IMG/VR virus record: IMGVR_UViG_3300045988_006728
Length of the DNA stretch: 64,000 bases
Source of the DNA: a virus
Lineage: Duplodnaviria; Heunggongvirae; Uroviricota; Caudoviricetes
Direction: 5' to 3' (one strand)
The notes beneath the pieces are model-generated. The model was not told the DNA's origin, did not search any database, and saw only the letters and a program-made list of their open reading frames with translations. The position numbers and the translations under genes were made by a program. Each line of letters opens with the position of its first letter. Within the stretch, counting starts at the first letter, position 1. Positions 25,160 to 62,762 of this stretch are shown one piece after another.

Positions 25160-26347
25160 ATGGCGGTAGGTGAAATTCAAATTAGTGCCTTGCCTCAAGC
25201 AGCCTTACCAATTGACCTTAGTGATATCTTCCATCTTAAGCAGGGTATTGAGGATAAGAGATGTACTCTTGAGCAATTACTTGCTCCACACTCAAGCCTA
25301 AGAAATAACCCTCATGGTGTTACTAAAACACAAATTGGTTTAGATAACGTTATCAATGCTCTTCAGTTAGTTGCTGCAAATAACTTATCAGACGTTACTA
25401 ATGTAGCTCAGGCAAGAGCAAATCTACAGATTATGTCTTCAGAAGAGGTTAATAATCTTGTTCAACAGCATATTCAGGACAAGAGCAACCCACATAATAC
25501 AACTAAGGTACAGGTAGGATTGAGTAATGTTCAGAACTGGACAACATCTAACCTTTATAACGAAGATGCAGATAAGTATGCTACAGCAAGAGCAGTAAAT
25601 AACTTGTACAAGGCTGTTCAGGCTTCCTATCCAGTAGGTACTATCCATCTTTCCATGAACTCTGCAAACCCTTCTACATATTTAATTTGTGGAGGAACTT
25701 GGGAGTTAGTTTCAAAAGGTAGAGCATTGGTTGGTTATGACTCTGATACAAGACCAACAGGCTCTGTATTTGGTGCTTCAACTGTCACTTTGTCAGTTAA
25801 TAACATGCCACAACACTCACACTCTGTGTCTCTTAGTGGTGGTGGTCACACCCATAATGCAACGGTGTCAATTTCAGCTTTTGATTATGGAACTAAGACT
25901 ACCAACTCTTTTGACTATGGAACAAAGACCACTAACACGACTGGTAACCACAACCATGTGGGCAGTGGGTCAACAAATGCGGCTGGTGCTCACAACCATA
26001 GATTGACCTATGAAGCAGGTGGTGGTTTATCGGAAAGACCTGCAATGGTTTGGTCTACAAGGAATGACCAATCATGGTACTCAGCAGATGCTGTCTGTGA
26101 AGTCGCTGGTTCACACACTCACTCTTTCAGTGTTACCACTAACACGACTGGTAACCACAGCCACACGGTTGGTATTGGTGCTCACAGCCACACGGTTGGT
26201 ATTGGTTCACATACACACAATGGTACTGTAACAGTTTCTTCTTCTGAGCATACGCATAGCGGGAACACTAACAGTATTGGTGGTGGACAAGCTTTTAACA
26301 TTGAGCAGCCATCCTTCGTACTGTATGTATGGCAGAGAACAGCTTAA
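25160..26347 (+). CDS. Tail fiber protein with His-X-His repeat tip domain
   Basis: 395 aa; repeated HTHS/HSHT motifs and in-frame tandem DNA repeats; C-terminal motif shared with the next gene. Confidence 0.65.
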   Translation: MAVGEIQISALPQAALPIDLSDIFHLKQGIEDKRCTLEQLLAPHSSLRNNPHGVTKTQIGLDNVINALQLVAANNLSDVTNVAQARANLQIMSSEEVNNLVQQHIQDKSNPHNTTKVQVGLSNVQNWTTSNLYNEDADKYATARAVNNLYKAVQASYPVGTIHLSMNSANPSTYLICGGTWELVSKGRALVGYDSDTRPTGSVFGASTVTLSVNNMPQHSHSVSLSGGGHTHNATVSISAFDYGTKTTNSFDYGTKTTNTTGNHNHVGSGSTNAAGAHNHRLTYEAGGGLSERPAMVWSTRNDQSWYSADAVCEVAGSHTHSFSVTTNTTGNHSHTVGIGAHSHTVGIGSHTHNGTVTVSSSEHTHSGNTNSIGGGQAFNIEQPSFVLYVWQRTA

Positions 26348-26393
26348 TTTCTTTACAGGGGCTTGATAGCCCCTTTTAAGAGGAAAATTTATA

Positions 26394-28781
26394 ATGGCAG
26401 ATTACAAGTTGAGTGAATTAAACTCAATCAATACAATCCGTTCAGATGACCTTCTTCATGTCAGAGTTAAAAAGAGACCTGAAATGCTGGGTGATGAAGA
26501 CCGTCGAATGACCTATCAAGACTTCTTAGCATCTTTTAAACTTGAAAGGTTTGTTCAGATTGCTGGTAGCACTATGACGGGTGACTTAGGAATTGTTAAG
26601 TTACTTTATGGTGGTAAGGTAGTATTTAACCCAACAGGCTCTTCTGAGATTACTATTGGGGATGTTTTAAAGACTTTTAAAATCAACGCAAACGGCCTTA
26701 GATTAACTATTGCAGATGCTTCAAGGTCGGCAACTGTTTATCATACTCTGAATAAGCCAAGCCCTAATGAGCTTGGGATGAGAACTAATGAAGAGAATGA
26801 TGCAAGATATGCAAGGTTGGCTGTAAATAACACCTTTAGAGGCACTCAAGCTATTCTCTCTGACAATGAAGCTCTTATTGCTAAGAATATTACACAAGGG
26901 ATGCCACTCTATATTCGTGGTCAAGATGCAGATGGTACTAACAGGTGGTATCTAGGTAATGATAACAAGGGTACAGACAATCTTGTTTTAAAAAACGTTA
27001 AATCTGGTGCATATGTAGCTATTTTAGCTAACCTAATCTCCGTGAACAAATCAATCCAAATCACTGGGCAAGTTCAACCTTCTGATTGGACTAACTTAGA
27101 TGCTAGGTATTTTACTCAGACAGCAGCTAATCAGAGGTTTGCACAGTTAGCTGGTAATAATACCTTTAGAGGCGTGAATACATTTAATCAAATCCTATCA
27201 ATTAAGACGAATAGTGCAGCCTTAAGGTTAAAAAACACTGTAGCTAATGGTGCACTGTACATTAAAGCCGAAGCTAATGATGGCTCTGGTAAGTGGTATG
27301 TAGGTAATGGTGATAATACACCTGCTGTATTAATCCACAACTATACGTATGGTTCTAATCTTAGACTCGACAATGGTTATGTTGAGGTTAATAAGCAACT
27401 TAAAGTCGTTGGTCAAGTTCAACCTTCTGATTGGACTAACATTGACTCTAGATATATTCCGGCAGGAACTTTGAGTAATCTTGCCAAGCTGAGTGATGCA
27501 AACACTTTCAGGTCTACACAGGTTATCAATCTGAATGGCTCATTGTTACAGCTAAAGAACACTACACAAGACAGAGAGCTTTACTTTGCTGGCCATAATG
27601 CTGATGGTGTTAGAAGGTGGTACATCGGTAATGGGGAACCATCCAACCCAACAAGATTTACTATCCGCAACGACAGAACTGCAACTACGCTTTATATGCA
27701 AGACGATTTCTTGTTGGATAAAACTGTCAGAATTACTGGTCAAGTTCAACCTTCAGATTTCTCTAACTTAGATGCTAGATATTTCTTAAAAACAAAACTG
27801 TTAAACCAATCTTTAATGACAAGGACAGCTAATAGACTGGATGACCCATCATCATTCAACAAAGATTGTTCAGGGTTTGTAAGAAACAACGCTATTGAGC
27901 AGGGTCTGAAAGATTTAGCCATCCATGTAGCACATTCTGCTGGTATTGCTCATGCCAGAGGTATTGCTTTTACATATGGGTCTAAAGGTCTTGATGTCTT
28001 CACATACGCTTATGGGTCAGATGGAGCATATGTTGGAGAGGCACAGTTGTATTCAACGGCATTTAAACCAACCCCTTCAGGTATTGGTGCATATACTAAA
28101 GCTGAAACTGACCAGAAGATTGCACAGGCAGTAAGTGACTCTACAGACCTTAATAAAATCTATCCAGTAGGTATTGTGACATGGTTTAACAGCAATGTTG
28201 ACCCTAATACAGCACTTCCTGGTCTAACTTGGACGTACCTGAACAATGGTGTTGGTAGAACTATCAGAATTGCAGCAGCAAACGGTTCAGATGTTGCTAC
28301 AACTGGTGGTTCAGATTCTGTAACGTTATCTGTTGGCAACTTACCATCACACACCCATAGTTTCTCTGCTACCACTTCATCTTTTGATTATGGTACGAAG
28401 AACACTAATAGCACTGGTGGTCATACTCACTCTGTAAGTGGCACAACAAGTGCTGCTGGTAAACACGCTCACCACTTAGGTCTGCTATTGGTTAATGGTG
28501 GTGATGCTCAGTACGGTTATACAACTGTTAGCAATAACAAGACGAGAACTCTTGACTGGCTTGACAGAACTGATAACAAGTTCCCTAACACTAACACAAC
28601 TGGTAACCATACACACACATGGTCTGGTACTACAAGTAACACTGGTGCTCACACCCACTCTGTAGGTATTGGTGCTCACACCCATACAGTTAGGGGTAAC
28701 ACTGGTGGTACAGGTTCTGGTTCAGCATTTAGTGTCACTAACCAGTTCTACAAGTTGATGGCTTGGGTGAGAACTGCTTAA
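26394..28781 (+). CDS. Long tail fiber protein with three internal repeats and His-X-His tip domain
   Basis: 795 aa; three roughly 100-aa repeats each containing NTFR...DG..RWY.GN...QVQPSDW(F)...LD(A/S)RY; C-terminal HTHS repeats. Confidence 0.7.
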
Positions 28782-32562: not shown

Positions 32563-32946
32563 TCAAATACCTGTGCAGCTTCTGTTTTCTAAGAAATACT
32601 CCACACCATACATAGCTTTTTGCATCAAATCTTCTTTAAACTGGATACGGTGGTTGAGCATCGCCTGTACATCAATATCGTCATGGTGTTTCTCTTTAAT
32701 GTTTGCAGATTGCAGGAAATACTCTGCAAGAACACGATACTGGTAGTCAGTCACCTTATCAGTCATCTCTGTCAAAGACTCTTCAGAGATGGGTTTCAGT
32801 AGCTCACCATTAGCTAGAGCAACACCTTTTACAATCTGGCAAGTATCTTCTGGAACACCTGACAAGTCCACATTTGGGAGTTCTGTTGCATTGACTGGTA
32901 AATTCATTGCCATAACCATTGCAGCAGCTAATAAAATCTTTTTCAT
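32563..32946 (-). CDS. Secreted protein with N-terminal signal peptide
   Basis: 127-aa ORF; MKKILLAAAMVMAMNLPVNA followed by an acidic mature region. Confidence 0.5.
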   Translation of the reverse strand: MKKILLAAAMVMAMNLPVNATELPNVDLSGVPEDTCQIVKGVALANGELLKPISEESLTEMTDKVTDYQYRVLAEYFLQSANIKEKHHDDIDVQAMLNHRIQFKEDLMQKAMYGVEYFLENRSCTGI

Positions 32947-33039
32947 AATGACCTCAAAGTTATATTAAATTTTGTATTACATTGAGTATAAAAATAAGCT
33001 ATAACACCTGACTTGTCAACAGATTTTATAGCTTATTTG

Positions 33040-33300
33040 GCAGATTTTTTATAAGGCTACTGCCATCCTTCCATACCAAACCTCACCTGACCTCGCCTAA
33101 CCCTACCTTACCCCACCATACAGCACCTTATTAAAACACCCTGTTTAAAGACCTTTTAAAAAGGTAAGTCTCATTTTAATGTAGCTGAGACTAACTACCC
33201 ATACCGAACCTCACCGCACCATACTACACCTGACACCACCTTACACCACCGCACCATACCTGACCGAGCTACACATCACTTAAAAACCCTTTTCAAAGAC
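33040..33300. repeat. G-depleted, CA-rich non-coding region with two similar blocks of about 60 bp
   Basis: Plus strand 33061-33120 and 33191-33270 are almost G-free; blocks begin ccataccaaacctcacc and cccataccgaacctcacc. Confidence 0.6.
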
Positions 33301-33554
33301 TCTTAAGTGATGCTGGTGAGTACCCGTTGGTTTATGCTGCTCAGCATACTCACCAAATTTTCTATGTCAACAACTTTCTAATAAAGTTTTATGAAGATTT
33401 TGCTTAACAACCCGCCTCACATGCCTGTGCTCTTTCTTAATAAAGAGTGACCTCTTCTTGATAGAGCGCCTATTCTTGTAAGTATTACTAGGATACTTAT
33501 CATGAACCGGACAACAGCTACCCGGATTGGTAAACTTGATAATCTCTCTTTTCA

Positions 33555-34655
33555 CTATTCATAATCCCTAATAACTAACCCGACAGGGAACTGTAAAGAA
33601 CCCTTACGAGTCATCTTCTGAAACTGAACCGTTAAAGGCTTCCCGATAAACTCTTCAGGATGTTCAGCAAGATACTGTTTCTTCTCGTGTGTAGTCTTCC
33701 ATGAGACATCTACAAAGACGTTAGGAAGCGTCTCTACAACGAACTTACCATGACCACGTTTATCGGTCTTGACACCAGTAACTTTAAACTCTTCAGTGTG
33801 CATCTTCTTGTGCTTAATCAAGAAGTATGAACGGTGACTACACTCGTAGAAAGATTCTTCAGAGATTGAACGGTACATTGCACCTTCAAACTTAGCTTCA
33901 ACCCACTTATCATGGGCTTCATCAAACTCTTCCCAAGAATTTACACGGATAGTCTGTACAGGAACAACTCTACAGGTATCCCCAAGCTCAACAATTGGTG
34001 AATTATCAATAACTTCACGACGCTCAGGCCAAGTTTTTGAATTGTCGCAGATATCATACCAGTAGAATTTAAGAAGGTGACGGTCTGGATTGTCAGCATT
34101 CTTAATCATAGATACAATATCTTCTAAGTCCCAACCATGAGCATAAATCTCTCCATCAAAGTCTTCCACTTGCGGATGTAATTTAAGCAACAAAAGCAAA
34201 TCTGGGATTAGTTCTGTTGGAACGTTGTAAACAGTATTCTCACGAGAATAGGCTGTGAAACTAACTGAATCAGCATCTCTTGAAATCCTACAACGTACAC
34301 CATCAAGTTTTGGTTGAGCATCAGCAGGGAACTTCAGATACTTTGCATGGCTAACCTTTGCAGCATCATGAGCAAGCTGTACACCTACCTTCTCAGTATT
34401 CTGTGCAGATTCTTTTGTATAAGCATAACCTTTACGGTCAACTTGCTTTTTATACTTAGCAGCAACTTCAAAGAGAGCTTGCTGTTCAGCGTTACGCTCA
34501 TTCTTTTTACCGATGTTCTTAGGCTCTGCTGTATACTCTTCAAACATCATCTTGCCATTCTCTTTACCGTAGGTTGTAATAACTTTGTCACCTACAGCAA
34601 CACATGACCAGACGTTAAAAGAGCCGTCTTTATTTTGTTTGTACAGAATTGTCAT
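33555..34655 (-). CDS. ATP-dependent DNA ligase
   Basis: 366 aa; adenylation motif I PKLDGVRC (KxDG). Confidence 0.7.
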   Translation of the reverse strand: MTILYKQNKDGSFNVWSCVAVGDKVITTYGKENGKMMFEEYTAEPKNIGKKNERNAEQQALFEVAAKYKKQVDRKGYAYTKESAQNTEKVGVQLAHDAAKVSHAKYLKFPADAQPKLDGVRCRISRDADSVSFTAYSRENTVYNVPTELIPDLLLLLKLHPQVEDFDGEIYAHGWDLEDIVSMIKNADNPDRHLLKFYWYDICDNSKTWPERREVIDNSPIVELGDTCRVVPVQTIRVNSWEEFDEAHDKWVEAKFEGAMYRSISEESFYECSHRSYFLIKHKKMHTEEFKVTGVKTDKRGHGKFVVETLPNVFVDVSWKTTHEKKQYLAEHPEEFIGKPLTVQFQKMTRKGSLQFPVGLVIRDYE

Positions 34656-34957
34656 TTTCTCTTACCACCAATCTCTACGTCGATAACTTGAACATCGCCA
34701 GCAACATCAAACTTATGTATGATGCTTTCCACAGTATAAGTCCAACCATCAATGCGAACCATCTCACCTTCTCGTGGAACTATTGGATTACGTTGAGCTA
34801 CAGTTGTAGTGGAGTGAACAACATCATAACGATAGATATAGTTTACTAGGACTTCCATCGTGAAAACCTCACTCAATAACCGTAGTATGTGATTGTCCAT
34901 TTTTGCCATAGCTGTAAGATGTTGTTGTTTGAGAGTTTGGACATCTGACAACAACAA
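34652..34957 (-). CDS. Hypothetical protein
   Basis: 101-aa ORF, start overlaps the next gene. Confidence 0.35.
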   Translation of the reverse strand: MLLSDVQTLKQQHLTAMAKMDNHILRLLSEVFTMEVLVNYIYRYDVVHSTTTVAQRNPIVPREGEMVRIDGWTYTVESIIHKFDVAGDVQVIDVEIGGKRK

Positions 34958-35105
34958 TATCTCTGCTTATAGCATCACCATGTAACTTGTATACTCTGCA
35001 ATCTTGCATCTCTGGTGGGAGGCTATAAGAAGCATTTTTATCTTCATAAGAAGGGTTGCAGCCAGATAGAAAAATAACACCAAGCGCAATTACCACTTTC
35101 CACAT
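34869..35105 (-). CDS. Small lipoprotein (signal peptide plus lipobox LSGC); candidate superinfection-exclusion protein
   Basis: 78 aa from the internal ATG preceded by an AGGAG RBS; MWKVVIALGVIFLSGCNP. Confidence 0.5.
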   Translation of the reverse strand: MWKVVIALGVIFLSGCNPSYEDKNASYSLPPEMQDCRVYKLHGDAISRDIVVVRCPNSQTTTSYSYGKNGQSHTTVIE

Positions 35106-35760
35106 AACACTACTCCTATTACTGTTCACGATGTTCTACTTCTCTGTACGTTCGTCGATAGTATATAATAAGCTGTGCTAACTCGTTGCTTTTAACATCT
35201 GAACGTAGCAGTTGCCAATCAAAACCTTTACCGACTCTTCCATATAAACTAAACAGTTTTACTTTGCGTTTCATTTTGGTATACCAATACTCAGAAGTCA
35301 ATATTAATACGTTCGCCCTTAAGGACTCCAGTACGGTCTCTTGCAATCTTGCCGTCAACAATAAGGATATGTGCAGCCCTTAAAGAGTCACTATTAAAAG
35401 CTTTTACGAACTTACTAGGCATCACTACAATGGGCATCTCCTGAATCAACTCTGGAGTATAGCAATTGTCGTGAAGTTGCTGAATAACGTCTGCAAGTGT
35501 CATTTTTGATGTCTCCAATACTCAATGTCAATAAGTTCTTGTGCAATGCTTTTAAGGTTACCTTTCAAGAAAACCTTCTCAGAACCTGAAAGAGATGAAT
35601 TGTCAATTAACCTGTTCATTCTCTCAAACAACTTCTGCTTACGATTTTTGATAGTCTCCTTTGAAGCACCTTTCATCATTGCTGCATGGGTTCTTCCACG
35701 ATGGCTCATAATCCCTCCTATACAAGATGTAGTATAAGGTACTCTTCCCTGAGCACCTTG

Positions 35761-36324
35761 TCAACTTAGTTTTGCAAACTCTCCGTGGAGTTTAATAGCA
35801 GCTTCACAGTAAGCTTTATGGGCTTCTTCTGGTGTGTCAAACATACCAAGATGATAGTTTTTACCTTGTAAACGTATCATTGCTCGAAACCTTTTACTTA
35901 TCTTCTGTACACCTTTTGGCAACCCAGATGGGGACTTTCTTGACCGATTGCAAGAGTTTTGTGAAGCTGTACAAACCCTTAAATTCAAGTACCTATTGTC
36001 CCAACCGTCCCCATTCTTATGGTCAACCTGTAAGTTTTTATCAGGCAGGTATCCATCCACATATAGTATTGCTAGACGGTTAGCTTGGTAGCCTTTACCA
36101 TCAAGCAATAACTGAACAGACTTGTGACCATCTGTGTTTATCCTATAATTTCCTGCCTTTTTACCTCCAAAACGAGAGTTGAAGTTCTTATTGCCTCGTG
36201 ATACCGGCTCTCTAAACTTCCAAGTAAAGACCCCTGTTTCGGGGTCGTAGTCCAATAGCTCCTTAAGACGAATTTCTGTAATCATTTCAACACCATCAAT
36301 GTACTTCCAACCAGCTCTTACCAA
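35761..36324 (-). CDS. HNH homing endonuclease with AP2-type DNA-binding domain
   Basis: 187 aa; HNH region QVDHKNGDGWDNRYLNLRVC...N.CN; overlaps the 3' end of the polymerase gene by 29 nt; paralog of 45864-46388. Confidence 0.7.
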   Translation of the reverse strand: MVRAGWKYIDGVEMITEIRLKELLDYDPETGVFTWKFREPVSRGNKNFNSRFGGKKAGNYRINTDGHKSVQLLLDGKGYQANRLAILYVDGYLPDKNLQVDHKNGDGWDNRYLNLRVCTASQNSCNRSRKSPSGLPKGVQKISKRFRAMIRLQGKNYHLGMFDTPEEAHKAYCEAAIKLHGEFAKLS

Positions 36325-38995
36325 CCTTACCTGTGCCAGTTACAAGCGTCTCACTCTTCAAACCTAAATTCTTAGATGCCTGACCATACATCCAGTCAGT
36401 TATGGCTTTCACTTCTTGAGTCATACTTTCTGGACATTCCCAACTGTTTTCATCGTGGTATGCCAGCAAAAGCCTAGCACCAATTGCTGGTTTTCGTCCA
36501 TTTAATTTTGTCAACCCTTCTTCACATGCTCTTCTACAAGCAAGGTTAATTGCCTCATTTTGAATCTGAGCCTCCGAACCCATGAGCAAATAATTCAATA
36601 ACTTATGTGGAGATTTACACCACAACCAAGCTCCAGCAACCTTTACAAAACCCCCTTTAGAGATTGCAGCAGTCTTACCAAACACCTCTTCAAGTGCCTT
36701 TTTAGTTGCTTTGTAGTCAGCTTCCAAGTCATCTAACAGCTTCTTAATTTTAGGCAAACGGATAAAGTAAGTCTGTTTAGTCAGCGCACCTTCCTGAGTA
36801 GTTGCAGCCTTAATCGTCTTAGCAAACTTCTCATCACCTGCACCGAACAGCAGTGCATAGATACCATTCTTAGCTTTCTTACGGCCTTTGCTAATCTCAT
36901 GAAGAAGATTCTCATCCTGAGTAGCTCGACAAGTCAAGATATCCTGCTCATCATTCAAGCTAAAGTAAATACTGTTCAATGTATGTGCATCAGTCCCTGA
37001 ATAGACAACGTACAGGTCATTCTCAGAGTCATAGCGAAGGTACTTATCAATCTCTGGGTTGAGGTACTCATCAAAATGTTTGCAGTAATAGCGTCCATCT
37101 TCTTGACGAATGAACTCAATTTCTTCTTTACCTTGCGTTACCGCTTTGGTGAAGTCTTTATCACCCATAAAGTTACAAAGAAGAACTAGCTGGGCTGAGT
37201 TCATATCTACAGAGACAACGTTAGTACCTTCCTCACAAATCCATACTGCCCTCATTGGTTCTCCATAGACAGCAGCACCAGACGGTACGTTTACAATACC
37301 ATACTGTGTCATACGTCCAGTTGAAGTACCAAACACCATTGCACCAGCACTAAGGCGACCATCAGGACGAATCTGGTTAAGCCAACCTTTTTCATCATCC
37401 TTTGAGTTCTCAATAGTTCTGCGTCGGTGCATCAAAGTATAGTACTTAGCAATCTTCTGTCCAAGCTCACCTTCAATCGTATCATAAGATGATTCAGTAA
37501 GTTTTGGTGAAGTACGGATTAAGCAAGGTTCAAGCAAATCTGTGTATTTCTTCACAGACCAGTTATGCTCGATGTACTGTACACCTTCATGTTCAACATA
37601 ACTCAAACCACACCGCTCAACCATTTCCTGCCACTTAGGATGCTTTGTAATCATCTTTTTATTGTCTTTGAAACGACAAACTTTGACAGGGCGACCATCT
37701 GAGTCTTTCTTGTAATTCCAGTCATCTGGAACCCAACCAACTGATTTCAAGTAGTCTTTAACAACTGCTACCTGAGTCATACGAGAAACTTCAAACTCAA
37801 TTGGTGTATATGGCGCATCAATCAAACCTGTGTAGCGACTTGACTCAAGTTCAAAGTGGTTAACAACGTGGCTGTTATAGTACTTCACAGTTTTGACTGT
37901 TTTTACTGGTTTCCAGTCTTTGCATTTCTTACCAATCTTTGCGTTCAACTCATTGCAAATTGCACGAGCATCCTTCATTGCTACAAAACCCTCCTTGTAC
38001 TCTTCACCAGTTACAGAGTTGGTTGGTGTATAGCAATTTCTCTTTTCAATGTTAAAAATCTTTGTAGTTGGCTTACCAAATGGTTTGATTTCATAAGTCT
38101 GCATCTCACCATTACGCACCTGCTGACGATACTTCGTCTTAGGGTACTTGGTAATTCTTTTCAGTCCATCTGCATGACCAAATGCTTCAACATACTCATT
38201 CCAAGCTTTTGCAAACTCTTCTCCAGTGACTTTACCTTTGGTCTTAATAGTTGGAGGTAGATGCGGTTCAACTTCTGAAGCAAGCTCATTAGTCAACTTG
38301 TCAAGTTCCTTTACATGGAACTCCATAAGCTCTTTATCAGCTTTCCAGCCATTGATAGCTTGTTGACTCATCCAGAAAGATGTTTCTTTAGCTCGCATGT
38401 AGGTTTCATAAGTGTCTATGCCACACTTCTTAAGCTTGAGATATTCATTATCAAGTGCCCGTTTAGTTTTGGCGTTAATACGGATATCTTCTACAACACG
38501 AGTGAAGATTTCTGCATTCCACACACCCCAATGTTCAATCTCTGGTTTACGAACACCAACACGAGCACCCCATGCAGCCAAACCATGAGCACCTTTATAG
38601 CCCTTTGGAGTTGGTCTATCCATCCACTGAACACGAGACTGGATAAGAGAATCCTGAAAGAAATTACTCCACGGTTTACACTTTGGATTATCAAAGTTCC
38701 ATAAATCAGGTGCAATGTGATTGAAAACCCACCAGTCATAACCGAGACCATTATGGATGCAAAGACGTTTTGCCTTTAACGCAAACTCAATGCCTTCACG
38801 TAAGCCACCCTTAATGTACTTGGTATACTTGTGACCGAGGATAGGCTCATCTGTAAAGACCCATACAGGCGGCTCTTCATCGTCAGATTTATAGTCTGCG
38901 AAAGCCATTACGTGCACTTTAGTGAACTCAAGGAGTAAACCATCAGTTTCTGTATCACCAACTAAATGTAAGTTTTTAAAATCTACGTTTTCCAT
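36296..38995 (-). CDS. DNA polymerase, family A, with 3'-5' exonuclease domain
   Basis: C-terminal motifs VVSVDMNSAQL (A), KKAKNGIYALLFGAG (B) and LLAYHDE (C); likely start at 38995 with a GAGGGAG RBS (track ORF extends to 39025). Confidence 0.8.
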   Translation of the reverse strand: MENVDFKNLHLVGDTETDGLLLEFTKVHVMAFADYKSDDEEPPVWVFTDEPILGHKYTKYIKGGLREGIEFALKAKRLCIHNGLGYDWWVFNHIAPDLWNFDNPKCKPWSNFFQDSLIQSRVQWMDRPTPKGYKGAHGLAAWGARVGVRKPEIEHWGVWNAEIFTRVVEDIRINAKTKRALDNEYLKLKKCGIDTYETYMRAKETSFWMSQQAINGWKADKELMEFHVKELDKLTNELASEVEPHLPPTIKTKGKVTGEEFAKAWNEYVEAFGHADGLKRITKYPKTKYRQQVRNGEMQTYEIKPFGKPTTKIFNIEKRNCYTPTNSVTGEEYKEGFVAMKDARAICNELNAKIGKKCKDWKPVKTVKTVKYYNSHVVNHFELESSRYTGLIDAPYTPIEFEVSRMTQVAVVKDYLKSVGWVPDDWNYKKDSDGRPVKVCRFKDNKKMITKHPKWQEMVERCGLSYVEHEGVQYIEHNWSVKKYTDLLEPCLIRTSPKLTESSYDTIEGELGQKIAKYYTLMHRRRTIENSKDDEKGWLNQIRPDGRLSAGAMVFGTSTGRMTQYGIVNVPSGAAVYGEPMRAVWICEEGTNVVSVDMNSAQLVLLCNFMGDKDFTKAVTQGKEEIEFIRQEDGRYYCKHFDEYLNPEIDKYLRYDSENDLYVVYSGTDAHTLNSIYFSLNDEQDILTCRATQDENLLHEISKGRKKAKNGIYALLFGAGDEKFAKTIKAATTQEGALTKQTYFIRLPKIKKLLDDLEADYKATKKALEEVFGKTAAISKGGFVKVAGAWLWCKSPHKLLNYLLMGSEAQIQNEAINLACRRACEEGLTKLNGRKPAIGARLLLAYHDENSWECPESMTQEVKAITDWMYGQASKNLGLKSETLVTGTGKVGKSWLEVH

Positions 38996-39054
38996 TTTTA
39001 CTCCCTCTAAAATCATTAACCTCATACATTACTGCAAAAAATTATAAAAAGCAA

Positions 39055-62213: not shown

Positions 62214-62762
62214 ATGAAGAAATTGATTCTAGGTTTGTGCTTAATGTTTACAGCACACTTATCTTATGCAGTTGACTGCCCAGAGCTATCAATTAGCCAA
62301 AAAGTAAACATGTTAAAAGCTTACCAGTATGGTGAGAATAACATGGGTAAAGGTTGGGGTATCACTCTAGCTGCTATAGCCTTACAAGAGTCAGAGTTAG
62401 GTCTGAAGGTAGAGAATAAAAAGACCCATGACTATGGTATCTTCCAGAATCACTTGAAGACTGTTGTAAAGCGTAACAAAATTAGTCCTAATGTGGCTAA
62501 AAAGAAACTCTTAAAAGACTTTGACTATGCTGCGAAGGAAACTCACAAAGAGCTTGAGTTTTGGACAAAGGTGCATGGTCAGCCAAAGTCAAAGAAGACT
62601 TTACAAAAAGTTTTAGCATCATATAATGCTGGGTATTCGTACAGAATCCCTAAAGCTAAGAAATATTCTCAAGATGTCTATAACAACATGAAAGTTATTG
62701 CTCAATGTGAATTTGCAACAAACATTTCTAAGGTAAACCATGAAAAAATTAAAAAAGTCTGA
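62214..62762 (+). CDS. Secreted lytic transglycosylase (SLT-domain muramidase)
   Basis: 182 aa; signal peptide MKKLILGLCLMFTAHLSYA; catalytic E-S (ALQESELG), YGIFQ and SYNAGYS motifs. Confidence 0.5.
   Translation: MKKLILGLCLMFTAHLSYAVDCPELSISQKVNMLKAYQYGENNMGKGWGITLAAIALQESELGLKVENKKTHDYGIFQNHLKTVVKRNKISPNVAKKKLLKDFDYAAKETHKELEFWTKVHGQPKSKKTLQKVLASYNAGYSYRIPKAKKYSQDVYNNMKVIAQCEFATNISKVNHEKIKKV

What the first reader, a model, noticed from the sequence alone, without database searches (positions are those of the whole stretch)
34869..35105. Small lipoprotein in the early region: candidate superinfection exclusion factor
A 78-aa ORF with a good RBS encodes MWKVVIALGVIFLSGC, a signal peptide with lipobox and the Cys at +1. 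Small phage lipoproteins such as T5 Llp and Cor block the phage receptor to prevent superinfection. A second secreted protein at 32563-32946 and an SLT muramidase with signal peptide at 62214-62762 show several envelope-targeted proteins made outside the late operon.
Basis: partly seen in the sequence, partly recalled or inferred. Interest (0 to 1): 0.5.

Follow-up and report, generated by a model that had tools for sequence, protein, structure and literature searches.

The report
Conserved early phage lipoprotein, function unknown
A Felix O1-like phage makes a real 78-residue lipoprotein from its DNA-replication gene block; it belongs to an uncharacterised family (DUF4884) shared by many unrelated virulent phages, is not related to the known receptor-blocking lipoproteins, and does not track the phage's receptor-binding fibres.

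Summary
The ORF at 34869-35105 (minus strand) has AGGAG 7 nt before its ATG, the signal peptide MWKVVIALGVIFLSG and a lipobox Cys16. The window is a Felixounavirus. The protein matches phrog_902, and its homologues carry precomputed PF16225 (DUF4884). The family has at least 1,202 clusters at 50% identity, all small stand-alone lipoproteins with an invariant lipid Cys and two further Cys. dN/dS is about 0.06.

Members sit among small early genes in Ounavirinae, Vibrio Demerecviridae, Straboviridae, Schitoviridae, Vequintavirinae and jumbo phages. They are almost absent from bacterial genomes.

The "Llp/Cor-like receptor blocker" reading is not supported:
- The mature domain shows no sequence or fold similarity to Llp.
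- The gene lies 6 kb from the tail-fibre genes.
- Felixounaviruses use the LPS core as receptor.
- The mature protein is 100% identical in an E. coli phage and a Salmonella phage whose tail fibres are 57-77% identical.
- Sorting signals differ (CN versus CDG/CDN).

It is not a spanin either.

My best inference is a periplasm-facing effector that binds a conserved host envelope component. Receptor-independent exclusion is one possible outcome. No exclusion phenotype can be shown here, and function remains untested.

The parts
34869..35105 (-). Coding sequence of the 78-aa prolipoprotein (stop codon included); member of phrog_902 / DUF4884 (PF16225)
   Evidence: sequence; phrog_902, E = 1.3e-16; homologues carry precomputed PF16225:DUF4884; dN/dS 0.06; the identical protein is in public databases, named only 'hypothetical protein'
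35113..35117 (-). Shine-Dalgarno AGGAG, 7 nt upstream of the ATG
   Evidence: read directly from the minus-strand sequence
35061..35105 (-). Signal peptide, residues 1-15 (MWKVVIALGVIFLSG), ending in the lipobox L-S-G
   Evidence: pattern match, absent from shuffles; lipobox conserved in 149 of 149 representatives; LPAM_1 hits in 28 of 84 members
35058..35060 (-). Codon of Cys16, the predicted lipid-modified +1 residue. It is followed by Asn-Pro, with no Asp at +2, so outer-membrane sorting is predicted by the E. coli +2 rule
   Evidence: invariant column; the sorting prediction rests on established knowledge of Lol avoidance signals and was not tested
34872..35057 (-). Mature domain after the lipid Cys: about 7 kDa, hydrophilic (GRAVY -0.79, pI 6.1), predicted as a small antiparallel beta-sheet
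   Evidence: AlphaFold2, pLDDT 73.6 and 67.8; strands around residues 19-22, 37-42, 50-54, 60-66 and 69-75; composition; no hydrophobic segment
34998..35003 (-). Codons of Asp35-Cys36. Cys36 is invariant in all alignments; Asp35 is invariant in the 84-sequence alignment and in at least 90% of the 150-sequence one. Cys36 is the presumed disulfide partner of Cys55 at the base of the beta2-beta3 hairpin
   Evidence: invariant or nearly invariant columns; 133 of 149 members have exactly two further Cys; the disulfide is an inference from the predicted hairpin
34932..34952 (-). Codons of the family signature V-V-R-C-P-N-S (residues 52-58), the most conserved stretch, containing Cys55
   Evidence: the motif VVRCPNSxT[ST] is present in 112 of 256 collected members
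35119..35274 (-). Context: upstream small gene (51 aa from the ATG at 35274; phrog_2381, unknown function). It has no transmembrane segment, so it is not an i-spanin partner
34652..34858 (-). Context: downstream small gene (68 aa; phrog_4427, unknown function). It has no transmembrane segment and overlaps the start of the ligase gene

Best explanation
The ORF is a real gene for a small Sec/LspA-processed lipoprotein of the uncharacterised DUF4884 / phrog_902 family. It is transcribed with the replication and nucleotide-metabolism genes of a Felix O1-like virulent phage.

Proposed mechanism (inferred):
1. After export and lipidation at Cys16, the 7-kDa disulfide-stapled beta-sheet domain hangs in the periplasm from a short linker.
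2. In this phage it is probably anchored to the outer membrane (Asn at +2). In some relatives it is probably anchored to the inner membrane (Asp at +2).
3. There it binds a component of the host cell envelope that is conserved across Gammaproteobacteria.
4. It therefore acts on the host and independently of the receptor. It does not mask this phage's own receptor, and it does not bind a part of an incoming phage.

I cannot fix the phenotypic output. I rate general protection or exclusion of the infected cell at a step after adsorption at roughly half of this hypothesis. The other half is a different envelope takeover or anti-defence role.

Shown: the gene, the lipobox, family membership, the family's distribution, purifying selection, and decoupling from the tail fibres. 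Inferred: localisation, the disulfide, the class of target, and the phenotype.
For: - Real conserved lipoprotein.
- Large family of stand-alone 75-130 aa lipoproteins: 1,202 representatives at E <= 1e-3 and 674 at E <= 1e-10, with an invariant lipid Cys and two further Cys.
- Spread over at least six virulent phage lineages with different tails, receptors and hosts: Felixounavirus, Vibrio Demerecviridae, Straboviridae (Acj61, Aeh1), Schitoviridae (BUCT194), Certrevirus and Eneladusvirus/Asteriusvirus jumbo phages. In all of them the gene lies in arrays of small early genes.
- No conserved neighbouring gene across lineages, so no dedicated phage partner.
- Strong purifying selection.
- The mature protein is 100% identical between this phage and Salmonella phage DR094, although tail fibres are 57-77% and the ligase 90% identical. 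This points to a target that does not vary with host range.
- Nearly absent from bacterial genomes: 1 locus in 185,579 species genomes, using a motif that 44% of members carry. This suggests a role in lytic infection.
- Anchor signals differ among Enterobacterales phages: C-N-P here, C-D-G in Erwinia/Yersinia jumbo phages, C-D-N in Pectobacterium CB7. A periplasmic target reachable from either membrane would fit this.
Against: - No partner was identified and no homologue has been characterised.
- The fold is only moderately confident and matches nothing informative.
- No literature on the family was found.
- The gene is dispensable. It is detectable in 196 phage records against 296 for the adjacent ligase, and truncated alleles exist.
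- The +2 sorting rule was established for E. coli and may not hold in all hosts.
- Hosts of most metagenomic members are unknown, so 'conserved across Gammaproteobacteria' rests on the cultured phages only.
Confidence: 0.5

Rival explanations
1. Llp/Cor/Rtp45-type superinfection exclusion. The lipoprotein sits in the inner leaflet of the outer membrane, binds the phage's own receptor and makes it unusable. This protects the infected cell and keeps progeny from being lost on cell debris.
For: It has the same size class and architecture as Llp: a mature lipoprotein of about 62 residues with two Cys, made before late genes in a virulent phage. Asn at +2 predicts outer-membrane sorting. The characterised non-spanin phage lipoproteins reviewed here (T5 Llp, Rtp45, and Ltp of Streptococcus phages) are exclusion factors (PMC9586334, PMC12685063, PMC3952083, seen).
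Against: - The mature domain has no sequence or profile similarity to Llp, and there are no Cor/Llp PHROG or PDB hits.
- No fold match was found.
- The gene is not adjacent to the receptor-binding genes, unlike T5 llp/pb5. In Vibrio T5-like phages it lies near the ligase genes.
- Felixounavirus receptors are the LPS core sugars on the outer leaflet. A 7-kDa periplasmic protein cannot mask them directly.
- The mature protein is identical in phages with 57-77% identical fibres and hosts of different genera.
- The family is shared by phages with unrelated receptors.
- Asp+2 (inner-membrane retention) variants occur in other Enterobacterales phages.
Confidence: 0.07
2. Spackle/Imm-type exclusion. 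The lipoprotein binds a component of an incoming phage's penetration machinery in the periplasm (tail lysin, tape measure protein or tube tip) and stops genome delivery after adsorption.
For: In Acinetobacter phage Acj61 the homologue lies immediately upstream of the spackle gene, in the same orientation. In a 233-kb metagenomic phage contig an Imm_superinfect gene lies about 4.2 kb away. The periplasmic location fits. T4 Imm and Sp act in this way (PMC7677548; bioRxiv 10.64898/2026.03.06.709160).
Against: - The penetration machineries of sipho-, podo- and myoviruses are unrelated, yet the family keeps an almost invariant VVRCPNS core across them.
- Factors directed at a phage partner are expected to co-vary with that partner, but no conserved phage neighbour exists.
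- The two co-locations are single cases among about 20 contexts inspected.
- There is no similarity to Sp or Imm.
Confidence: 0.12
3. Lysis function: an o-spanin (Rz1-like), a u-spanin or another lysis accessory lipoprotein.
For: It is a small phage-encoded outer-membrane lipoprotein. Three family members give weak hits to the Rz1-like LysC model (best E = 0.0095), which probably come from the signal peptide.
Against: - Felixounaviruses have a separate annotated, overlapping Rz-like / o-spanin pair. In phage GEP101 it lies at 63.7-64.2 kb, which corresponds to just past the right end of this window.
- Neither flanking gene here has a transmembrane segment, so there is no i-spanin partner.
- None of 249 family members has a C-terminal hydrophobic segment, so the protein is not a u-spanin.
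- The mature domain is a predicted folded beta-sheet with 4 Pro in 63 residues, not a proline-rich extended chain.
- The gene lies in the replication block, far from the holin (about 29.05-29.4 kb in the window) and the lysin.
Confidence: 0.03
4. A dispensable accessory gene with no role in the envelope biology of infection under most conditions, for example a selfish or niche-specific gene, or a protein that acts simply by loading the Lol/Lsp lipoprotein pathway.
For: The gene is absent from about one third of relatives that carry the adjacent ligase. Truncated alleles exist. It lies in a mosaic region next to a homing endonuclease.
Against: dN/dS is 0.06. The residues conserved across very distant phages lie in the mature domain, not only in the signal peptide. 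That argues for a specific binding function.
Confidence: 0.1

Closest known systems
T5 Llp (lytic conversion lipoprotein; labelled 'Cor superinfection exclusion protein' in the T5 RefSeq record)
   Same: A lipoprotein of a virulent phage with a mature part of about 62 residues and two Cys, made before the late genes, with outer-membrane sorting predicted.
   Different: The mature sequence is unrelated. No fold match was found. The gene is not beside the receptor-binding gene. The host receptor is LPS core rather than FhuA. The protein does not co-vary with the fibres. The family spans many phage families rather than one subfamily.
Cor (phi80, N15, T1) and Rtp45 (phage Rtp), exclusion lipoproteins acting on FhuA and LptD
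   Same: Small periplasm-facing phage lipoproteins that work by binding a host outer-membrane protein. This is the closest precedent for 'binds a host envelope component'.
   Different: No PHROG, Pfam or PDB sequence match was found. Those genes lie next to the tail-tip or receptor-binding genes and are receptor-specific. This family lies among early genes and is independent of the receptor.
DUF4884 (Pfam PF16225) / phrog_902
   Same: This is the family the protein belongs to. phrog_902 matches at E = 1.3e-16. Homologues at 59-97% identity carry strong precomputed PF16225:DUF4884 hits. NCBI already names some phage proteins 'DUF4884 domain-containing protein' (PMC12210894).
   Different: Both are only labels for 'unknown function', with no experiment behind them. 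The local Pfam scan did not reproduce the PF16225 hit.
T4 Spackle (Sp) and Imm
   Same: Early-expressed envelope proteins of virulent phages that protect the infected cell. One homologue is adjacent to sp.
   Different: Sp and Imm are helical proteins, are not lipoproteins, and bind phage components (the gp5 lysozyme and the tape measure protein). They show no sequence similarity to this protein.
Rz1 o-spanins and the T1 gp11 u-spanin
   Same: Phage-encoded lipoproteins with a lipobox.
   Different: A separate spanin pair exists in this genus. This gene has no i-spanin partner and no C-terminal membrane segment, and it is not in a lysis cassette.

Membership tests
Bacterial-type lipoprotein (LspA substrate) | N-terminal signal peptide with a positive n-region, a hydrophobic core and a lipobox [LVI][ASTVI][GAS]C, with the Cys within about 15-35 residues | tested here: met
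   MWK-VVIALGVIF-LSG-C16. It matches the pattern, with 0 of 100 shuffles matching the strict form. The Cys is invariant in 149 of 149 representatives. 28 of 84 members hit LPAM_1.
Bacterial-type lipoprotein (LspA substrate) | Actual lipid modification and globomycin-sensitive cleavage | not testable with these tools
   Needs labelling or a mass-spectrometry experiment.
DUF4884 (PF16225) / phrog_902 | Significant match to the family profile | tested here: met
   phrog_902 E = 1.3e-16 over residues 1-76. PF16225 is listed, unmarked (E <= 1e-5), for homologues at 59-97% identity. Caveat: the local hmmscan gave no PF16225 hit for the window protein or five relatives.
T5 Llp family | Homology of the mature domain to Llp | tested here: not met
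   hhalign aligns only the signal peptide (18 columns). BLASTP of the mature parts gives E = 0.72. No PDB sequence hit.
T5 Llp family | Gene adjacent to, and divergent from, the receptor-binding protein gene | tested here: not met
   T5 llp starts 80 bp from the pb5 gene. Here the tail-fibre genes are at 25160-28781, about 6 kb and more than 10 genes away.
T5 Llp family | Sequence co-varies with the receptor-binding protein or receptor | tested here: not met
   The mature protein is 100% identical to that of Salmonella phage DR094, while tail fibres are 77% and 57% identical.
T5 Llp family | Binds the phage's outer-membrane protein receptor and abolishes adsorption | not testable with these tools
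   Literature gives the LPS core as the Felixounavirus receptor (PMC13196588), which makes this unlikely. No experiment was possible.
Cor / Rtp45 exclusion lipoproteins | Profile or sequence homology, and a position next to tail-tip genes | tested here: not met
   The only PHROG hits are phrog_902 and a weak unknown family. There is no PDB sequence hit at E <= 10. The gene lies in the replication block.
o-spanin (Rz1) | Embedded in, overlapping or directly following an i-spanin gene within the lysis genes | tested here: not met
   The flanking genes have no transmembrane segment. An Rz-like/o-spanin pair is annotated elsewhere in the genus.
u-spanin (T1 gp11) | N-terminal lipobox plus a C-terminal transmembrane segment | tested here: not met
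   No 19-residue window with mean hydropathy above 1.6 occurs in the mature part of any of 249 members.
T4 Spackle / Imm | Homology to Sp or to Imm_superinfect (PF14373) | tested here: not met
   No Pfam, PHROG or PDB match. In Acj61 the sp gene is a separate neighbouring gene.

The most novel reading that the evidence does not exclude
DUF4884 lipoproteins are a receptor-independent envelope effector shared across phage families. They would be made early by virulent phages of Gammaproteobacteria with unrelated tails and receptors, and would bind one conserved periplasmic or outer-membrane host machine, for example a step of lipoprotein, LPS, outer-membrane-protein or peptidoglycan biogenesis. 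The result would be a general block to secondary attack on the envelope, or a new kind of host-envelope takeover.
Probability: 0.3. Interest if true: 0.7.

Novelty: new variant of a known kind. Interest (0 to 1): 0.42.

Why it matters
The characterised non-spanin phage lipoproteins reviewed here (Llp, Rtp45, Ltp) are narrow exclusion factors tied to a receptor or cell-surface target. This family is different. It is one of the few small accessory proteins shared, with a nearly invariant core, by Felix O1-like, T5-like, T4-like, N4-like, rV5-like and jumbo phages. It does not follow the receptor-binding proteins.

Finding its partner would show either a general way for lytic phages to seal or re-programme the Gram-negative envelope, or a conserved weak point of that envelope. 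Practically, it bears on phage cocktails. A receptor-independent exclusion factor could make unrelated phages interfere with one another.

If the gene turns out to have no phenotype, it remains an ordinary DUF annotation.

Tried and rejected
- **Pfam, NCBIfam, PADLOC.** Scans of the protein and its neighbours gave nothing informative. The local Pfam copy never returned PF16225, although precomputed tables do.
- **PDB by sequence.** A single-sequence search and a profile search gave no relevant hit.
- **Conserved neighbours.** All-against-all BLASTP of ORFs from 23 loci found no gene that travels with the lipoprotein across lineages.
- **Bacterial genomes.** A first attempt with the 84-sequence alignment failed for lack of a conserved stretch. 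The 12-sequence alignment found one locus, in Hylemonella gracilis.
- **Literature.** Searches on Felix O1 or Felixounavirus plus lipoprotein, DUF4884, phage-encoded lipoprotein and lipobox found no study of this family.
- **Spanins.** The o-spanin and u-spanin ideas were rejected.
- **Chance ORF.** Rejected.
- **Alternative GTG start at 35129 (86 aa).** Rejected for this phage. It overlaps the upstream gene's end, and the ATG at 35105 has the AGGAG. Felix O1 itself uses a longer, different N-terminus.

Full report
**1. What is there**

The window is a Felix O1-like myovirus. A 4-kb stretch around the finding is 97% identical to Felixounavirus LF82P2 and matches 262 phage records, mostly Escherichia, Salmonella and Shigella Felixounaviruses.

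The ORF is on the minus strand, with its ATG at 35105 and its stop at 34869-34871. AGGAG lies 7 nt upstream of the ATG. The preceding gene ends 13 nt before the ATG, and the following gene starts 10 nt after the stop.

The product begins MWKVVIALGVIFLSG-C: a basic residue, a hydrophobic core and an L-S-G-C lipobox with Cys16. A strict lipobox pattern finds this one ORF in the window and none in 100 shuffles.

The gene lies between DNA polymerase plus an HNH endonuclease (35761-39025) and an ATP-dependent DNA ligase (33555-34655), all on the minus strand. In an annotated relative (GEP101) this leftward block runs from DNA polymerase to thymidylate synthase and is flanked by the structural genes and the holin. 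"Early or middle" is therefore a reasonable inference, but I had no transcript data.

**2. It is a real, conserved protein family**

- The protein matches phrog_902 (unknown function) at E = 1.3e-16.
- Its relatives in a 5.8-billion-protein collection carry the precomputed Pfam family PF16225. Other outputs name this DUF4884, with strong unmarked hits. My own hmmscan against the local Pfam copy never returned PF16225, and I leave that discrepancy unexplained.
- A profile search of 1.84 billion cluster representatives found 1,202 members at E <= 1e-3 and 674 at E <= 1e-10. Nearly all of the 150 best-scoring hits listed are 75-130 residues long and match over almost their whole length.
- In 149 sampled representatives the lipid Cys is invariant behind a canonical lipobox, and 133 have exactly two further Cys.
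- The conserved core reads Y-x-L-P-x-x-L-x-D-C-x-[IV]-Y-x-L ... V-V-R-C-P-N-S-x-T-S-T-T-x-x-x-G-K.
- Within Ounavirinae the mature part has a median dN/dS of 0.06.
- The exact window protein is already in public databases, always as "hypothetical protein". Felix O1 ORF91 is its orthologue.

**3. Distribution and context**

tblastn against about 50,700 phage genomes finds the family in about 600 records:

| Phage group | Examples |
|---|---|
| Felixounavirus and relatives | many |
| Vibrio T5-like Demerecviridae | JSF12 and about 290 V. crassostreae phages |
| T4-like Straboviridae | Acinetobacter Acj61; Aeromonas Aeh1 and AsFcp_2 |
| N4-like Schitoviridae | Vibrio BUCT194 |
| Vequintavirinae, Certrevirus | Pectobacterium CB7, where it is annotated "putative lipoprotein" |
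| Phages of about 145 kb | Klebsiella phages |
| Jumbo phages of 320-380 kb | Erwinia, Yersinia, Escherichia and Salmonella phages |

Everywhere the gene sits in runs of small genes of unknown function. These runs lie near replication or nucleotide-metabolism genes, or at the early end of the genome. An all-against-all comparison of ORFs from 23 loci found no gene that accompanies it across lineages.

A few neighbours are suggestive, but each is a single case:
- spackle lies immediately downstream in Acj61;
- an Imm_superinfect gene lies 4.2 kb away in a freshwater jumbo-phage contig;
- the anti-CBASS gene Acb1 lies two genes upstream in another contig.

A motif carried by 44% of known members found only one locus among 185,579 bacterial and archaeal species genomes. 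That locus is in a Hylemonella gracilis island. The family is thus essentially a property of virulent phages.

Within the Felix O1 group the gene is accessory. It is detectable in 196 records, against 296 for the adjacent ligase, and truncated alleles exist.

**4.

T5 llp lies 80 bp from, and divergent to, the receptor-binding gene pb5. Here the two tail-fibre genes are at 25160-28781, about 6 kb and more than ten genes away. In Vibrio T5-like phages the homologue lies upstream of the ligase genes, among hypothetical genes with no annotated receptor-binding gene within 7 kb.

Sequence and structure comparisons gave the following:
- Profile comparison with T5 Llp aligns only the 18 columns of the signal peptide. 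The mature parts give E = 0.72.
- No PDB chain is matched by sequence or by profile.
- The AlphaFold2 models are of moderate confidence (pLDDT 73.6 and 67.8). They show a small antiparallel sheet whose beta2-beta3 hairpin would be closed by Cys36-Cys55.

Published work assigns the LPS core oligosaccharide as the receptor of Felixounaviruses (PMC13196588). A 7-kDa periplasmic protein cannot cover that.

The most direct test is the comparison across genomes:

| Compared with the window phage | Tail fibre 1 | Tail fibre 2 | Ligase | Mature lipoprotein |
|---|---|---|---|---|
| Salmonella phage DR094 | 77% | 57% | 90% | 100% |

Across five genomes the identity of the lipoprotein does not follow the fibres or the host genus.

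Finally, the residue after the lipid Cys differs among phages of Enterobacterales. It is Asn-Pro here, Asp-Gly in Erwinia and Yersinia jumbo phages, and Asp-Asn in Pectobacterium CB7. By the established +2 rule the last two mean retention in the inner membrane. A protein that must sit under an outer-membrane receptor should not tolerate that.

Together these results make an Llp/Cor/Rtp45-type receptor mask unlikely. I give it about 7%.

**5. Other alternatives**

*Spanin.* A spanin role is excluded for practical purposes. The genus has its own overlapping Rz-like/o-spanin pair elsewhere. The flanking genes here lack membrane segments. No family member has a C-terminal membrane segment.

*Spackle/Imm-like action.* Binding to an incoming phage component is possible but fits poorly. 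The family keeps a nearly invariant core across sipho-, podo- and myoviruses, and it has no co-travelling phage partner.

*Chance ORF.* This is excluded by conservation and selection.

**6. Best explanation**

The pattern has six elements: very broad spread across phage lineages, strong purifying selection, independence from fibre type and host genus, no phage partner, restriction to virulent phages, and a variable membrane anchor. It is most simply explained by a periplasm-facing effector that binds a host envelope component conserved among Gammaproteobacteria.

What that achieves is not determined. By precedent the characterised small non-spanin phage lipoproteins reviewed here are exclusion factors (PMC9586334, PMC12685063, PMC3952083). 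On that basis and the few neighbourhood hints, general receptor-independent protection of the infected cell is the leading guess. Another envelope takeover or anti-defence function is about equally likely. I put 0.5 on the host-directed, receptor-independent model as a whole.

**7. Comparison, novelty and score**

The protein is a member of an already catalogued but uncharacterised family (DUF4884 / phrog_902). It resembles Llp, Cor and Rtp45 only in being a small phage lipoprotein. It fails their membership tests on homology, gene position and co-variation with the receptor-binding protein.

If it is an exclusion factor, it is a new variant of that kind: a different family, independent of the receptor and shared across phage families. 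If it targets a core envelope machine, it would be more novel than that.

As it stands, this is a correct gene call with an over-specific functional analogy. It is of moderate interest mainly because of the family's unexpected breadth. Score: 0.42.

Noticed in passing
window 62214-62762 (+): A 182-aa protein with a signal-peptide-like N-terminus (MKKLILGLCLMFTAHLSYA) and a sub-threshold Pfam SLT hit (19.2 bits against a cut-off of 21.3). The lytic-transglycosylase motifs ES, GIFQ and YNAG are readable. It matches phrog_600 (unknown function). It lies after rIIA/rIIB-like genes and before a polynucleotide kinase, away from the lysin and holin genes.
   Followed up: partly
window 32563-32946 (-): A 127-aa protein with a cleavable-looking signal peptide (…PVNA|TE). 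It is 100% identical to Felix O1 ORF87 and matches phrog_4332 (unknown function). Distant Ounavirinae orthologues also start with signal-like sequences.
   Followed up: partly
window 32947-33554: A gap of about 600 bp with sigma-70-like promoter matches lies between the ORF87 homologue and the ligase gene. Relatives (DR094, BPS15Q2, AYO145A) carry two or three extra genes at this position, so it is a plastic insertion spot.
   Followed up: no
window 35761-36324 (-) and 36296-39025 (-): An HNH/AP2 homing endonuclease gene overlaps the 3' end of the DNA polymerase gene by 29 nt. In the relative GEP101 the polymerase is annotated in two pieces with the endonuclease beside it, which suggests homing-endonuclease activity around the polymerase gene.
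   Followed up: no
window 33555-35105 compared with L065 (Salmonella phage DR094): Local mosaicism: the mature lipoprotein is 100% identical to DR094 while the adjacent ligase is only 90% identical. Against Felix O1 the pattern is reversed (ligase 98%, mature lipoprotein 92%). This suggests recombination breakpoints between these neighbouring genes.
   Followed up: partly
L006 5956-6234 (Hylemonella gracilis ATCC 19624, NZ_AEGR01000062.1): This is the only bacterial-genome homologue found (92 aa, lipobox LAGC, VVRCPNS core). It sits in what looks like a genomic island, beside an XRE-type regulator gene.
   Followed up: partly
L003 2489-3079 (Acinetobacter phage Acj61); L052 552-779 and 5001-5339; L059 5364-6246: Homologues lie next to spackle (Acj61), 4.2 kb from an Imm_superinfect gene (a freshwater jumbo-phage contig) and two genes downstream of the anti-CBASS gene Acb1 (a 91-kb contig). 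Each is a single case and none is a conserved linkage.
   Followed up: partly
proteins P0013 and P0014 (64 aa): Frameshifted or truncated alleles of the lipoprotein, diverging after residue 46 or so, occur on metagenomic Felixounavirus contigs. They are either natural loss-of-function alleles or assembly errors.
   Followed up: no
tool outputs: The local Pfam hmmscan never reports PF16225 for this family, even at E <= 10, although the precomputed tables list PF16225:DUF4884 as a strong hit for almost every member. The cause is unknown; the model may be missing from the local copy.
   Followed up: no
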